Shown here piece after piece: positions 8,451 to 14,400 of a DNA stretch of 34,762 nucleotides. The position numbers were made by a program. The first letter of the stretch is position 1, and the number at the start of each line of letters is the position of its first letter. This stretch comes from Mycoplasmatota bacterium (lineage in GTDB: Bacteria > Bacillota_I > Bacilli_A > RF39 > UBA660): the NCBI GenBank assembly GCA_012727915.1, contig JAAYGD010000001.1, forward strand, positions 1 to 34,762, given 5' to 3'.

Positions 8451-11400
8451 TCATCTCTCCTTTTTTTATATTTACTTTAACCATTGTAGGTCTTATTACT
8501 TTATCTTTATATATATATCCTTTTTGTAATACTTCTATTACAATATTATTTTCATATCCTTCTAAATCATCTGTTAAAACTGCTTGATGATAAGTTGGAT
8601 CAAATGTCTTATTTAAAGATTCTATCTCTTTTACTTCATATTTATTTAATAGATTTACTATACTAGAATAAATCATTTTAAACCCTTCCAAAAATTTTGA
8701 TAACTCATCAGTTAAATTAGTATCATCTAATTTAATAGCCCTTTCAAAATTATCTATTATAGGAAGAAGTTCTAATATTAAATCTTCATCACTATATTTA
8801 AGCATTCTATTTAATTCTTCATCTTTTCTTTTCTTATAGTTTTGTAATTCCGCTAAAGATCTTAACACTTTATCATTTAATTCAATATTCTCTAATTTTA
8901 TTTTTTCTAATTCTTCATTATTATCTTCTTTTTTCTTTGTCATCATTCCCTCTCAATCTTCTTCTTTACATAATCTAAATAACTAACTACCTTATCGTAT
9001 TCCATTCTTTTTGGACCTATAATCGCAATAGTACCTTCTTCTCCATTAATATTATATTTTGTCTTTATCATAGTAACATCTGAATCTATATTACTTTCAT
9101 CTCCAATATAAATATTAATACCATCTTTGGTTTCTTCAACAGTATGTATTAAATCTTCATCATTTAATTTTTTAATTATTTTTCTCATTTTTTCAGAATC
9201 ATCAAATTCTGGTTGAGATAACATATTAGTTTTAACCGATACATTATAATTATTAGATTTTTGAGTAAATTCATTAAATGCATCATAAAATATGTTATAT
9301 ATAGCTTCATGTTGTTTAATATAATTACCTATTATAGGTTTAATTTCAAACTCTAATTTTTCACTTACTTCATCAATTGGAGTTCCTATTAACAAACTAT
9401 TAATCAAATCTACCATTTTTTTTATTTCTTCAACAGATAAGTTTTTTCCTATATTAATAGACTTATTCTCTACATGACCTTTATCTGTTATTATGATTGC
9501 TACAAGCGAAAACTCACTAATAGGTATTACTTCAATTTTTTTTAATTTATTATCAGCTGAGGATTTTCCCAAAACTATAGAAGTATAAGATGTCATATCT
9601 GATATAATTTCCATACTCTTAGTTATAGCGTCAGTTAATATCAATTTATTATTCTTAAATATTGTTTGTAATTTTAAAACTTCTTCTCCAGTCATTTCTT
9701 TAGGTTTCATTAATTCATCAACATAATATCTATAACCTTTTTCACTAGGTATTCTTCCTGAAGAAGTATGAGTCTTTTCTAAATAACCTAAATCTTCTAA
9801 ATCAGCCATATCATTTCTTATTGTTGCTGATGAACAATCTAATTCATCACATAAAGATTTTGATCCAACTGGTTTTACAGTTTTAATATATTCTTCAACT
9901 ATTTTTTTTAATAATTCTTTTTGTCTATTAGTAATCAATATGCCACCTCCTCAACCAAACAATATGATTATATTATATCTTTTTAGCAATGTCAATAGAA
10001 GAGTGCTAAAAAAGAAATATTATTCATATTTCTTTCTAAACAATTTAATTTACTTATTATTTTATATGGTTCTAGACACAAAATAAGATACTATAACCGC
10101 AAATATTACTCCTATAAGGACAAATATATAACCATAATTACTATCTTGTTTTGATTTAACTCCCAATCTATCTAACAATAGAACTAATATATTCATTAAT
10201 ATTACTGCTACTAATATTCTTTCTGGATTATCAGTTAAAAATCTAACGCATACAGTTAACACCCCTAACCCCAATCCATATAGTATTTGACCAACACTAG
10301 TAGTTGGTGTAGTTACAGGGTCTGTCATAAATACAGCTATAAACAATAAACTTCCACTTAATAAATTAAATATTGGGAACCATATTCCCTCTCCATGATT
10401 AGAAGCAATCATAAACGTCATAATAAATACTGTAAGCAAATATGATAATGTTACTTTCCATTTAATTACTTTTAATATAGAAAGAAATACAAAAGATAAT
10501 AATATCAAAAATGCATTTGTTGTTCCTATGCTTCCAGGAACTGTTCCAAATAGAAAATTAAATAAATTACCATAAGGAGAAACTAAATTATTATAATTTA
10601 TTGATGTATAATCTAAAGTAACTACTGAAGAATATTTTTCAAGTTCTAATGGATTCAAATAATTAGAAAAATTTGATAATAAACTTCCAAATAATAATAT
10701 TATAATTACATATCCTAATGCTGCAGGATTAAAAAGATTTTCTCCAAAACCGCCATATATCATTTTTCCAAATAAAGTTGCAACTATAGCTCCTAATATT
10801 ACAACATATATTGGAACATTTATTGGTAACAATAGAGATAAAAATAAGCCCGGAATAATTGAATAAAACGGCAAATTCTTTTTATATCCCAATCTATTAC
10901 TTTCAATCTTTAAATATATTCTTTCAGTAAAGAAAGAAGTTATACAAGCTACAATAATTACTATTAAAGGATAAAATACATCTAATAGAGGGTATTTATT
11001 TTCTATAAATACTAAAAACACATTCTTATAAACCGAAAACAACAATAATGGAATTAATACCAATAATAGTCTTTTATAAATTAAATCTGTAGAATCTTCA
11101 TCTCTAATATGAGGTCCACTATCAATCGCATATTTCATACTATCTACTCCTTTTAGCTTTCTTAACAAAGCTTCTTACGTCTATATTAGATGGGCATATA
11201 AATGAACACATACCACATTCAATACACTTTTCTGGATTTAATTTTTTTAATGCTTCAGGATTATTAACTTTATCTTTAATTAAAACTGGCACAATATTAG
11301 CGGGACACATCTCAACACATTTCCCGCATCTAAAACAAGGATAAACTTTCTTATCTTCTATATCATCCAAAAATAAAATTCCATTTAAGTTTTGAGTAAC

Positions 11401-14400
11401 AATTAAATCATTCTTTGGAAGAGCTCTTCCCATCATTGGACCACCAGATACATATTTAATTGTATCTCCCGCAATTAATTCAATATTTGGCAATACATCT
11501 TTAAGATTTGTTCCAATTCTTAATAGCGCATTAGTAGGTTCTTTTACTCTTTCTCCACTAATTGTCACAAATCTTTTATCAATACAAGTATTATATTTTA
11601 AAGCTTTATATATTGAATATATTGTAGATATATTATTAACTACTATTCCTTTTTCTTGAGGAAGCTTATCATAACTTTCTTTAGTAATTTCTTTTATTAA
11701 AGTTTTCTCCCATCCAATAGGATAAAAGTCTTTCACACTTACAATATGAATTTTAGAATAATTAATCGTATTGTTTGAATAAATAGATAATAAATCAGAA
11801 TATTTCTCGTTAATTGCTATAAAACACTCTCTTAATTTATTAATACTAATTATTGCGTTAATCGTTTCTATTATTTCTTTAAAATATTCTTTTGCTAAAA
11901 CATAGTCAGAAGTAATATAAGGCTCACATTCTACTGCATTAACTATTAAAGTTTTTAGTATTGGTTCATATTTAATATAAGTAGGAAAATTTCCCCCTCC
12001 CATACTAGTAACTCCATATTTTTTAAGTAATTCTAAATACTCTTCTTTAGTATATGCATTGATATCTTCAACCATTTCTTCTTTTGGTTGTCTTCCTTTT
12101 TTTTCAATTACAACACATTTAACAGTTCTTCCATCTAAATAAACACATTCACTAATATCATTTATAATTCCATTAACTGGAGACACAATAGAAAAATCCA
12201 AATCTTTTTTTATAGCTATTGGATCATTTTTCTTTATTTTTTTACCTTTTTTTACTAAAATTTCAACATCAGTAGAAAAATTAACTACCAACGGCATATA
12301 TATAGTGTCTATATCACTTAAGTCAATTAATTTATCTTTTGATAAATAATCTTTATCTTCAAATTCTATTTTATTCATAAGAAATTCCTCCTTATTATTC
12401 TATATAATAATAACATTATTTATAACAAAAATAAACTATAAAACATAATATTTATTTATTAAGTTAATTTTATTCTTTCATAAACATTTACTTCTTTATC
12501 AATAAACACTTTTATATTTGTTTCTTTACCAAATCTAATAACACATAAATCACTTATTACAATTTCTTTATAATTATTAATTTTAAATTCATAACAAAAA
12601 CCTTCCACATCATTAGTTTGTTTTTCAATATTTAATCTATTAGACGCAAATATTATAATACTATTTTTTCCTAAAGAATTACATTCAACTACACAATAAT
12701 TGTCAATTTTAATAATAGTTTTTTTATTAAATTGAAATATCTTGGGTTTAATTTCATTATCTATTACTACTCTCTTTATTTCATCCAAATTAATCCTTTT
12801 TAATATACTTCCATTCTTCACTATTCCTGGTGTATCTATTAAAGTTAAATTATCATTTAATTTAAAACTAATGTTTTTTAATGTGGTTGATGGATAATAA
12901 CTAGTCAACAATTCCTCTTCTTCATTTAAATAATTTTTTATTAATTTTTTTATTAATGAAGATTTACCACTATTTGTGTAACCCACAACATATATATTGT
13001 TTTTTAACTTTAATAATAAATCATATAATTTATCTAAATTATGATTATTTTTACTACTAATAATAATATAATTCATATATCCAGGATATATCTTTTTTAC
13101 GTTTTCTAATAATGTATTTTCATTATTACTTCTTGGAATTATATCTTTTTTATTTATTACTAAAATACTATCTTTTTTTCTATCTCCAAGTATTTCTTCA
13201 TTATTTAAATTTAAAATATCAACTACATGCAATATAGTTGATTTTTCATCTTTTAATATTTCATTTATATTTAAATAAAAATCATTAGAATTGAAGTTTA
13301 AATATTCACCATAATTTTTTAATCTAAAACATCTTTTACATAATTTGTTTTCTTTGTTTGATTCTACATATCCATCTTTATCTGAATCAGTATTTTGAAG
13401 ATCTATTCCACACCCAAGACATTTATTAATCATAATAGTTTCCTTTAATAAATCCCAATTTTTTTAATCTTAATCTTAAAATTTTTTCTATTATTCTTTT
13501 TGATTTAATTAATATACTCTCTTTAGAGCTAATTCTTTCCACTAATATAGTATATATTCCCACCCTATTACCACCTAAAATATCAGTTAATAATTGATCA
13601 CCAATGAGTGCAATTTCATTTTCTGCAAACCTATATTCTTTAATTACTTTATTAAACTTCTTTTTAAAAGGTTTCCTAGATTTAGCGGAACAATCAACTT
13701 CTAATTTTTCTTTAAAAGGTTGAATTTTCTTTTTCTTAGCATTTGAAAATATTATTACTCTAAACCCCATTCTTTTTAATTTTTCTATTAAATCTATTAT
13801 TTTTTTACTAGGTTTTTTCATATCATTAGTAATAATTGTATTATCCAAATCAAAAAGTAAACATTTAATACCAATGCTATTTAATTTTTTATAATCAATA
13901 TCATAGATATTTTTTTGATACATATCGGGTTTAAATTTTTCAATCATGCCATCACCTATTATTAATTATACTATATATTTCTTTTATTTTAAACTAAATT
14001 CATATAAACTTATACCAATTGCTATTGTTAAATTCAAAGAATCTATTTCATTACTATGATTTATTACTACACTTTCATATTTTTTATATGATTCATCCAA
14101 ACCACTCGATTCATTACCAAATACTAAAGATACCAAATTATCCTTTTCTATTTCATTTAATTTGAGTTTACCATCAGTCATAAAAGTATATATTTTATGT
14201 TTATTATATGTTTCTTTATATTCATCAAAACTAGAAAACAATTTAATGCTAACACCAAATATAGAACCCATAGAAGCTCTTATAACTTTTGGATTAAATA
14301 TATCTACTGATGGAGTAATGATTGCTAAATTTTTATAATTAAATCCCAACATAGTCCTAATTATAGTTCCAACATTACCCATATTAGATGGATTTACTAA

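What a model noticed while it worked through the whole genome (the two positions that open the first line are those of the whole stretch)
10062..12378. Two-subunit RnfC-RnfD remnant without the rest of Rnf
The genome keeps an intact adjacent rnfC-rnfD pair (g00691, g00690) but no rnfA, rnfE, rnfG, rnfB or the flavin transferase ApbE, and the same orphan pair is kept in about a third of sampled RF39/UBA660 genera. I read it as a new, minimal membrane-anchored RnfCD module that works without the ion-pumping core, most likely as the cell's ferredoxin(PFOR):NAD+ oxidoreductase, with RnfD reduced to a flavin-less anchor. If true it would be the first functional sub-complex of Rnf outside the six-subunit pump and would explain how hydrogenase-less RF39 re-oxidise ferredoxin.
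Evidence so far: g00691 (412 aa, RnfC_N+Complex1_51K, two CxxCxxCxxxC at 347 and 384) and g00690 (358 aa, NQR2_RnfD_RnfE, 220 bits) are followed directly by hrcA. tblastn with RnfA, RnfE and the RnfG part of a full RF39 operon (G045) finds nothing in the genome (best E 0.39, call 33); Pfam ApbE not found at E<=1; no Rnf-Nqr, FMN_bind, Fe_hyd rows in pfam.tsv. In 201 sampled UBA660 genomes RnfD-like genes are in 106, RnfA/E in only 40: 66 have RnfD without RnfA/E. In 12 of 12 such genomes fetched, rnfC and rnfD are adjacent and open. The flavinylation motif (D-G-I-T-S-V-T-P in the full-operon RnfD) is eroded in the orphan RnfDs while T-D-P-x-T-S-P is kept. ApbE in the first 100 sampled genomes plus this one r [...]
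(Added by a program. Inside this text positions count along the whole contig: contig position 1 is position 1 of the stretch shown here. "Call 12" and the like, gene names such as g00115 and contig names such as C1 are that model's own, and its searches are not shown. The text may have been shortened before it was handed on; [...] marks where a part breaks off. The agent that wrote the report below was given it as the finding of a first reader that could run no searches.)

Follow-up and report, generated by a model that had tools for sequence, protein, structure and literature searches.

The report
Pump-less RnfC-RnfD leftover kept by selection
This small-genome anaerobe keeps only two of the six parts of the Rnf membrane redox pump; the two genes are still under selection and keep their iron-sulfur sites, so they do something other than pump ions, most likely passing surplus electrons to the membrane rather than turning ferredoxin into NADH.

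Summary
Observation confirmed: rnfC and rnfD are intact and adjacent; rnfA/E/G/B and ApbE are not found. Sister genomes hold the full operon at the same site, so this is an in-place deletion that cut an RnfD-RnfG fusion behind the RnfG anchor helix. Among 201 family genomes, 41 are full, 7 keep RnfC+RnfD-G with ApbE, 58 keep RnfC+RnfD, and at least 11 keep a lone cofactor-less RnfC; a single origin of the pairs is rejected. dN/dS is 0.08-0.21 in close pairs: not a neutral relic. All 58 keep eight Fe-S cysteines, but 35 have lost the NADH/FMN loop. The ferredoxin:NAD+ reading is weak: the pair is not enriched where hydrogenase is missing, 59 genomes with PFOR have neither, no NADH sink was found here, and published Rnf variants with intact RnfC lack that activity. 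Best guess: a non-pumping, membrane-tethered Fe-S/riboflavin relay that sheds electrons outward. 'First sub-complex' overstates: partial Rnf-like systems and an RnfCD module are proposed in print. The scan noted such a pair before on other DNA (e1-5331538). New variant; function untested.

The parts
11140..12378 (-). rnfC, 412 aa: barrel-sandwich, NuoF-like FMN/NADH domain, SLBB, 2[4Fe-4S] domain
11980..12015 (-). RnfC Gly-rich FMN/NADH loop (residues 122-133), nearly canonical here, one conserved Gly changed to Ser
11917..11940 (-). RnfC N-x-x-E-C-E-P-Y motif (147-154), invariant in 6 of 7 genomes of the genus, one conservative change in the seventh
11305..11337 (-). first CxxCxxCxxxC Fe-S motif (348-358)
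11194..11226 (-). second CxxCxxCxxxC Fe-S motif (385-395)
10062..11138 (-). rnfD, 358 aa: truncated RnfD-RnfG fusion
11103..11120 (-). RnfD N-terminal arm (residues 7-12), matching the arm that is buried in RnfC in 7ZC6
10719..10733 (-). RnfD N-P-A motif; Asn137 = riboflavin-binding Asn124 of 7ZC6, kept
10614..10640 (-). eroded flavinylation site; Val173 stands where 7ZC6 has the FMN-bearing Thr153
10305..10325 (-). RnfD T-D-P motif; Asp273 = riboflavin-binding Asp248 of 7ZC6, kept
10077..10136 (-). last hydrophobic helix (335-354): the RnfG membrane anchor of the ancestral fusion; the stop follows directly, the RnfG flavin domain is gone
9967..10009 (-). promoter of hrcA-grpE-dnaK (TTGACA-17-TATAAT, 12 of 12) overlapped by a CIRCE-like repeat (label recalled); marks the downstream edge of the remnant
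12459..13947 (-). context: yqeG-like phosphatase and yqeH-like GTPase (gene names recalled from the Pfam domains), found upstream of the full operon in sister genome G016 (yqeG also in G078)
8943..9938 (-). context: hrcA, found downstream of the full operon in G016 and G078

Best explanation
The pair is the NAD-side arm of Rnf, left by an in-place deletion of the RnfG flavin domain, rnfE, rnfA and rnfB, and kept by purifying selection as a non-pumping, membrane-tethered electron relay. Shown: deletion, selection, loss of the covalent-FMN site, retention of both Fe-S motifs. Inferred: RnfD still holds RnfC at the membrane through its N-terminal arm and, in this genus, still binds riboflavin; electrons enter RnfC from NADH (FMN site intact here) or, where that site is lost, from ferredoxin/PFOR at the Fe-S domain, and leave through the RnfD riboflavin to a diffusible acceptor (free flavin or a scavenged quinone) reached through the emptied FMN pocket. 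It would be an electron outlet, not a ferredoxin-to-NAD+ converter. The acceptor is not identified.
For: Same-site full operon in G016 and G078; G000/G006 nest among full operons. dN/dS 0.08/0.10 for rnfC/rnfD in G000-G006, within the range of neighbours (0.02-0.22); 0.12-0.21 in the 8 closest pairs of a deep-clade genus, against 0.09-0.19 for dnaG. Eight Cys in 58 of 58 pairs and 7 of 7 CDG. Asn137 and Asp273 kept in 7 of 7 genomes of this genus while five FMN-pocket residues changed here. A model of a deep RnfD keeps the whole fold (pLDDT 87.9; Z 26.9, rmsd 2.9 over 275 residues to 8AHX_D). The 7 CDG genomes keep the complete outward chain and ApbE without RnfA/E, the layout proposed for one-way export in Nqr/Rnf-like systems (PMC8238504). 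This genome makes NADH and reduced ferredoxin (GAPDH motif, PGK, PK, PFOR, AckA) but no LDH, D-LDH, Fe-ADH, hydrogenase or NADH-oxidase-type sink was found. RnfC homologue MNdh/PduS oxidises NADH and passes electrons on through its Fe-S clusters (PMC11275729).
Against: No acceptor or partner gene is linked (neighbours vary). UbiA-type prenyltransferase is absent here and in 54 of 58 pair genomes. The riboflavin Asp is kept in only 10 of 35 deep pairs. 59 of 80 re-searched genomes have PFOR and neither hydrogenase nor an Rnf piece, so another outlet exists and this one is not required. Ten genomes plus G067 keep an RnfC with no cofactor motif and no RnfD, so the scaffold can persist without redox. 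One rnfC in the genus is frameshifted (G205) and a 99%-identical contig has a stop in rnfC (L155); both may be assembly errors. No usable RNA data.
Confidence: 0.4

Rival explanations
1. Membrane-tethered housekeeping reductant: RnfC acts as an NADH diaphorase or plain 2[4Fe-4S] carrier feeding cytoplasmic clients (rubrerythrin, peroxidases, radical-SAM enzymes, anaerobic ribonucleotide reductase activation); RnfD only anchors and stabilises it.
For: Fe-S ligands are the one invariant feature. This genome has rubrerythrin, GSH-peroxidase-like and peroxiredoxin genes and several radical-SAM proteins but no flavodoxin, only one small ferredoxin and no NADH:rubredoxin reductase-type hit. PrdC and MNdh/PduS are RnfC homologues working outside Rnf (PMC3091704, PMC11275729).
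Against: A ten-helix protein under dN/dS about 0.1-0.2 is a costly anchor; riboflavin residues are kept in this genus; no client gene is linked.
Confidence: 0.2
2. Non-redox or moonlighting role of the fold, on a slow path to loss: the pair is kept for a structural or binding function, the Fe-S domain being retained while RnfD is there to bind it.
For: Ordered loss series full, CDG, CD, lone RnfC, none; lone RnfC of 264-304 aa without Fe-S domain or RnfD, open in 10 of 10; NqrA is a cofactor-less RnfC relative (PMC9588780); long branches after loss; broken rnfC in G205 and L155.
Against: Eight Cys kept in 58 of 58 pairs whose RnfC is only 22-52% identical to full-operon RnfC; dN/dS for the lone RnfC is higher (0.24-0.43 in the 3 closest pairs, dS near saturation).
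Confidence: 0.18
3. One reading: ferredoxin(PFOR):NAD+ oxidoreductase with RnfD as a flavin-less anchor.
For: In this genome the FMN/NADH motifs and both Fe-S motifs are nearly canonical; PFOR and a ferredoxin are present, hydrogenase is not found; the reaction is downhill (established redox potentials).
Against: Gly loop lost in 42 of 58 pairs and eroding in G202-G204; hydrogenase in 20 of 58 pairs versus 5 of 41 full; 59 genomes need neither; no NADH sink found here; Rnf variants with intact RnfC lack Fd:NAD+ activity (PMC11889175), though in those complexes RnfB still covers RnfC.
Confidence: 0.12
4. RnfD has become a channel or transporter (ion, small solute or flavin) gated or sensed by the Fe-S state of RnfC.
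For: The fold is related to ammonium and urea transporters (Z 10-13; PMC9588780); removing the covalent FMN empties the outer pocket; new conserved motifs appear in the deep clade.
Against: Mutagenesis argues that RnfD is not an Na+ path (PMC11889175); the transporter likeness is shared by all RnfD; lone RnfC survives without RnfD.
Confidence: 0.1

Closest known systems
Rnf complex RnfCDGEAB (7ZC6 C. tetanomorphum, 9ERI A. woodii, 8AHX A. vinelandii)
   Same: RnfC domain set, FMN/NADH motifs, two Fe-S motifs; RnfD fold, N-terminal arm, riboflavin Asn and Asp.
   Different: No RnfA/E/B, no RnfG flavin domain, no ApbE, FMN-bearing Thr replaced; the ion-pumping route cannot run.
Nqr/Rnf-like partial systems (PMC8238504, PMC10979944; passages read)
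   Same: One arm of Rnf/Nqr without the A/E core; RnfD-like subunit lacking its flavinylated Thr; proposed one-way export from NAD(P)H. The 7 CDG genomes are close functional analogues.
   Different: Those fuse the RnfD-like domain to an NqrF-type NAD-binding domain and keep a flavinylated RnfG-like subunit and ApbE; this pair uses RnfC and has neither.
Proposed FdhAH-RnfCD complex of a Natronincolaceae MAG (10.1101/2025.07.15.664484; passages read)
   Same: RnfC and RnfD proposed as a membrane-bound NADH module outside the six-subunit pump.
   Different: There it is assigned to a formate dehydrogenase in a genome that also has a full Rnf; no catalytic partner is linked here; one sentence, no assay seen.
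MNdh/PduS and PrdC (PMC11275729, PMC3091704; passages read)
   Same: RnfC homologues acting without Rnf as NADH-to-Fe-S electron feeders.
   Different: Partners are a microcompartment shell protein or proline reductase, not RnfD; their NADH site is the point, here it is the part most often lost.
NqrA-NqrB of Na+-NQR
   Same: The homologous pair (PMC9588780); NqrA is cofactor-less like the lone RnfC stage; riboflavin-to-quinone exit is the analogue of the proposed outlet (recalled).
   Different: NqrA lacks both FMN and Fe-S, NqrB keeps covalent FMN; own quinone synthesis is not indicated here.

Membership tests
Rnf complex (six-subunit pump) | RnfC with FMN/NADH site and two [4Fe-4S] motifs | tested here: met
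   TIGR01945 over cut-off; motifs aligned to 7ZC6_C; cofactor binding itself not assayed
Rnf complex (six-subunit pump) | RnfD with covalent FMN on the conserved Thr | tested here: not met
   Thr153 of 7ZC6 aligns to Val173; same result against G016
Rnf complex (six-subunit pump) | RnfD riboflavin residues Asn and Asp | tested here: met
   Asn137, Asp273; 7 of 7 in the genus; not general among orphans
Rnf complex (six-subunit pump) | RnfA and RnfE membrane core | tested here: not met
   No PF02508 match; deleted from the syntenic site; genome 93.8% complete
Rnf complex (six-subunit pump) | RnfG flavin domain, RnfB, ApbE | tested here: not met
Rnf complex (six-subunit pump) | Ion-coupled ferredoxin:NAD+ activity | not testable with these tools
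   needs an assay
Nqr/Rnf-like partial system (PMC8238504) | RnfD-like domain fused to an NqrF-type NAD-binding domain (PF00175) | tested here: not met
   RnfD carries PF03116 only
Nqr/Rnf-like partial system (PMC8238504) | Flavinylated RnfG-like subunit and ApbE | tested here: not met
   met in the 7 CDG genomes
PrdC | TIGR04481 cut-off; proline reductase operon | tested here: not met
   125.3 bits versus cut-off 490; no such neighbours
MNdh/PduS | Microcompartment locus; permuted barrel domain | tested here: not met
   Neighbours are yqeH-like and hrcA; RnfC_N is N-terminal as in 7ZC6
RnfC-RnfD heterodimer | The two proteins bind | not tested
   The complex predictor was not available; only the conserved arm and adjacency in 64 of 65 bear on it

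The most novel reading that the evidence does not exclude
In this family the NAD-side arm of Rnf has repeatedly been turned into a stand-alone electron outlet: first RnfC + RnfD-G with covalent flavins, then an ApbE-independent RnfC-RnfD pair that uses Fe-S clusters and exchangeable flavin to shed electrons across the membrane, an undescribed route of extracellular electron transfer in abundant, uncultured, genome-reduced anaerobes.
Probability: 0.25. Interest if true: 0.8.

Novelty: new variant of a known kind. Interest (0 to 1): 0.57.

Why it matters
Rnf is treated as an all-or-none six-subunit pump, and annotation of rnfC/rnfD is read as energy conservation. Here one family shows the pump being taken apart in a repeated order, with the leftovers under selection comparable to DNA primase. 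That gives a natural set of deletion variants for asking what RnfC and RnfD do alone, flags metabolic models that credit these genomes with Rnf, and exposes an open question: how cells with glycolysis and PFOR but no detected hydrogenase, LDH or ADH get rid of electrons.

Tried and rejected
Assembly gap as the cause: rejected for this locus by sister synteny and by single-contig genomes with orphans (G114 pair, G158 CDG). Neutral relic: rejected by dN/dS. Single origin of all pairs: rejected for 17 pairs in a 40-row subset (AU p 3e-67), but G000/G006 joined to the deep clade was not rejected (p 0.07); synteny separates them. Loss driven by ATP synthase loss: no, the family mostly lacks it (19 of 201; 2 single hits among 41 full). 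Own quinone synthesis: no link. A conserved third gene: none. PFOR seemed absent here but is cut by a contig start. GlyS as a rate control gave a discordant pattern and was dropped. The metagenome scan returned one near-identical contig and otherwise full operons, a microcompartment-type homologue or ferredoxin-domain hits (part of that output was cut). No description of this pair in this family was found in searches; the library lacks most subscription papers, and supplements (e.g. of PMC8238504) were not read. Distribution outside the family was not surveyed.
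Full report
Observation. The window holds rnfC (12378-11140, 412 aa) and rnfD (11138-10062, 358 aa) on the minus strand, one base apart, between a yqeH-like GTPase and hrcA. 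RnfC passes the NCBIfam RnfC cut-off (299.9 versus 245.95 bits); RnfD matches PF03116 at 220.8 bits but falls below the TIGR01946 cut-off. Searches of the genome (93.8% complete, 76 contigs) found no RnfA/E, RnfG flavin domain, ApbE or RnfB. The 123 bases between rnfD and hrcA contain a 12-of-12 sigma-70-type promoter and a CIRCE-like repeat (the label is recalled), so the heat-shock genes have their own start.

How it arose. In this family full operons carry an RnfD-RnfG fusion (39 of 40 fetched full loci) followed by rnfE, rnfA and often a short rnfB. The two nearest full-operon relatives on the RnfC/RnfD tree, G016 and G078 (SH-aLRT 96-97), have that operon between yqeG and hrcA-grpE, the same site as here; three further relatives fetched do not share it. 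The window's RnfD stops right after a last hydrophobic helix that matches the RnfG anchor. So this is a deletion in place, from the RnfG flavin domain through rnfB, not an assembly gap.

Family pattern. The same 201 genomes were searched each time. RnfD-like genes occur in 106 and RnfA/E in 41, all of which have RnfD. I fetched all 65 orphan loci and 40 of the 41 full ones. rnfC and rnfD are open in all 65 and adjacent in 64. Seven keep the RnfG domain (CDG), 58 do not (CD). ApbE follows the flavinylation site: 39 of 41 full, 7 of 7 CDG, 5 of 58 CD; the two full genomes without it have the weakest RnfA/E scores. A profile of 35 diverged RnfC run on 80 of the 95 genomes without RnfD (15 left out: 13 of lower quality and two with a known RnfC hit) found 10 with a lone RnfC of 264-304 aa, no Fe-S domain and no RnfD, mostly beside uvrC; an eleventh hit was an unrelated ferredoxin domain; G067 is a further lone RnfC. 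The CD pairs fall into one deep clade of 35 (FastTree support 1.0; 29 of 35 loci show uvrC or dnaG as neighbours) and 23 scattered shallow cases. One origin for 17 pairs in a 40-row subset is rejected (AU p 3e-67); joining G000/G006 to the deep clade is not (p 0.07), though tree and synteny place them apart. Kin are not independent, so these are tallies, not tests.

What is kept. All eight Fe-S cysteines stand in 58 of 58 CD and 7 of 7 CDG RnfC, at 22-52% identity to full-operon RnfC. The Gly-rich FMN/NADH loop is present in 39 of 39 full, 7 of 7 CDG, 16 of 23 shallow and 0 of 35 deep RnfC. In this window it is nearly canonical but is eroding in G202, G203 and G204 of the same genus. In RnfD the FMN-bearing Thr153 of 7ZC6 aligns to Val173, and Arg130, Glu185, Gly237 and Ser284 of that pocket are also changed, while the riboflavin residues Asn124 and Asp248 are kept as Asn137 and Asp273 (roles from PMC9588780, section 9 read; PMC11889175, passages). 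They are kept in 7 of 7 genomes of the genus; across pairs the Asn is kept in 17 of 23 shallow and 29 of 35 deep, the Asp in 14 of 23 and 10 of 35. A model of a deep RnfD keeps the full fold.

Selection. For G000-G006, dN/dS (Nei-Gojobori) is 0.08 for rnfC and 0.10 for rnfD, against 0.02-0.04 for grpE, hrcA and yqeG and 0.15-0.22 for three other neighbours. Deeper pairs give 0.11-0.40 with dS near saturation. All 7 genomes of the genus have the locus; rnfC is frameshifted in one, G205. In a deep-clade genus 14 of 14 genomes have the pair, rnfC full length in 13 and cut by the fetched stretch in one; the 8 closest pairs give 0.14-0.21 (rnfC) and 0.12-0.21 (rnfD) against 0.09-0.19 for dnaG; medians over 91 pairs are 0.37, 0.32 and 0.24. 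Against this, a 99%-identical metagenome contig has a stop at rnfC codon 219. The pair is selected but less tightly than core genes, and is dispensable in many lineages.

PFOR is almost universal (POR_N in 192 of 201; here cut by a contig start). FeFe hydrogenase occurs in 5 of 41 full, 3 of 7 CDG and 20 of 58 CD genomes, so the pair does not mark hydrogenase-less cells, and 59 of the 80 re-searched genomes have PFOR with neither hydrogenase nor an Rnf piece. This genome has glycolytic genes, PFOR and acetate kinase but no match for LDH, D-LDH, Fe-ADH, flavodoxin, ATP synthase, H+-pyrophosphatase or UbiA; its Pyr_redox_2 hits look by motif like two thioredoxin reductases and three other flavoproteins. 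A Pfam scan of 444 proteins (441 of a filtered list of 617, plus 3) at E<=1e-22 showed no other NADH sink beyond three short-chain dehydrogenases of unknown substrate; many proteins had no hit at that strict level, and the genome is incomplete. Turning ferredoxin into NADH would therefore not close the balance. In A. woodii, purified Rnf variants lacking the RnfA/E cluster, FMN on RnfG or the riboflavin residues had no ferredoxin-dependent NAD+ reduction although RnfC was intact (PMC11889175, passages). The ferredoxin:NAD+ reading stays possible for this genome but cannot hold for the 42 pairs without the loop.

Mechanism. What every pair keeps is an Fe-S domain tied to a membrane protein; what CDG genomes keep is the whole chain NADH, FMN, Fe-S, riboflavin, covalent FMN, outer flavin domain, with no return path. 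I infer that the arm is retained as an outlet for electrons, and that CD pairs do the same with exchangeable acceptors (0.40). Rivals are a tethered housekeeping reductant (0.20), a non-redox scaffold on the way out, for which the lone RnfC is the best evidence (0.18), ferredoxin:NAD+ reductase (0.12) and a gated transporter (0.10). Binding of the two proteins could not be modelled, and no RNA data were usable.

Comparison with what is known. It fails membership of Rnf on four features and of the Nqr/Rnf-like class on two. [quoted passage not shown] The RF39 passages of 10.1101/2020.01.21.914887 do not mention the pair; of PMC12174285 I saw abstract and outline only; PMC12306168 has no mention of Rnf. 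Searches found no account of this pair or of the loss series; supplements were not read.

Verdict. Real, selected and repeated; a new variant of a known system with an untested function. The surprising part is the ordered dismantling with selected leftovers, not a new ferredoxin:NAD+ enzyme. Interest 0.57.

Noticed in passing
L033, L042, L052, L054, L069, L070, L084 (G008, G031, G057, G059, G117, G120, G158): RnfC plus RnfD-RnfG fusion with the RnfD flavinylation Thr and ApbE kept but no RnfA/E; G158 is a single-contig genome with two RnfG domains. The cleanest candidate for one-way electron export.
   Followed up: partly
L173-L182 and L096: Lone RnfC of 264-339 aa with no Fe-S domain, no FMN loop and no RnfD, open in all 11, mostly right behind uvrC; an NqrA-like cofactor-less end state.
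   Followed up: partly
L098 (G034), L100 (G190), L099 (G051): Full-length operons whose RnfA/E score very low; G034 has also lost the RnfG domain, the Thr and ApbE: decay apparently in progress.
   Followed up: partly
whole genome and family: No ATP synthase or H+-pyrophosphatase found here; only 19 of 201 family genomes have an ATP-synthase catalytic subunit, and 39 of 41 with full Rnf have none. How the membrane is energised in pair-only genomes is open.
   Followed up: partly
family: 59 of 80 re-searched genomes have PFOR but neither FeFe hydrogenase nor any Rnf piece: an unexplained ferredoxin sink.
   Followed up: no
L270:1856-2632: Heliorhodopsin gene (PF18761, 323 bits) beside a DUF1295 gene in this small anaerobe genome.
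   Followed up: no
window 9983-10009 (-): CIRCE-like repeat whose second arm deviates from the recalled consensus and overlaps the -35 box of the hrcA promoter.
   Followed up: partly
G102:C78:24421-30752: An FeFe hydrogenase gene lies about 3 kb downstream of an RnfC-RnfD pair on the same strand.
   Followed up: no
window 17620-18981 (-) and L200-L215: GlyS identities split the sampled genomes into two groups that do not follow the Rnf tree, possibly a replaced gene.
   Followed up: no
L161: RnfC homologue with the barrel domain at the C-terminus (MNdh/PduS-like layout) in a metagenome contig.
   Followed up: no
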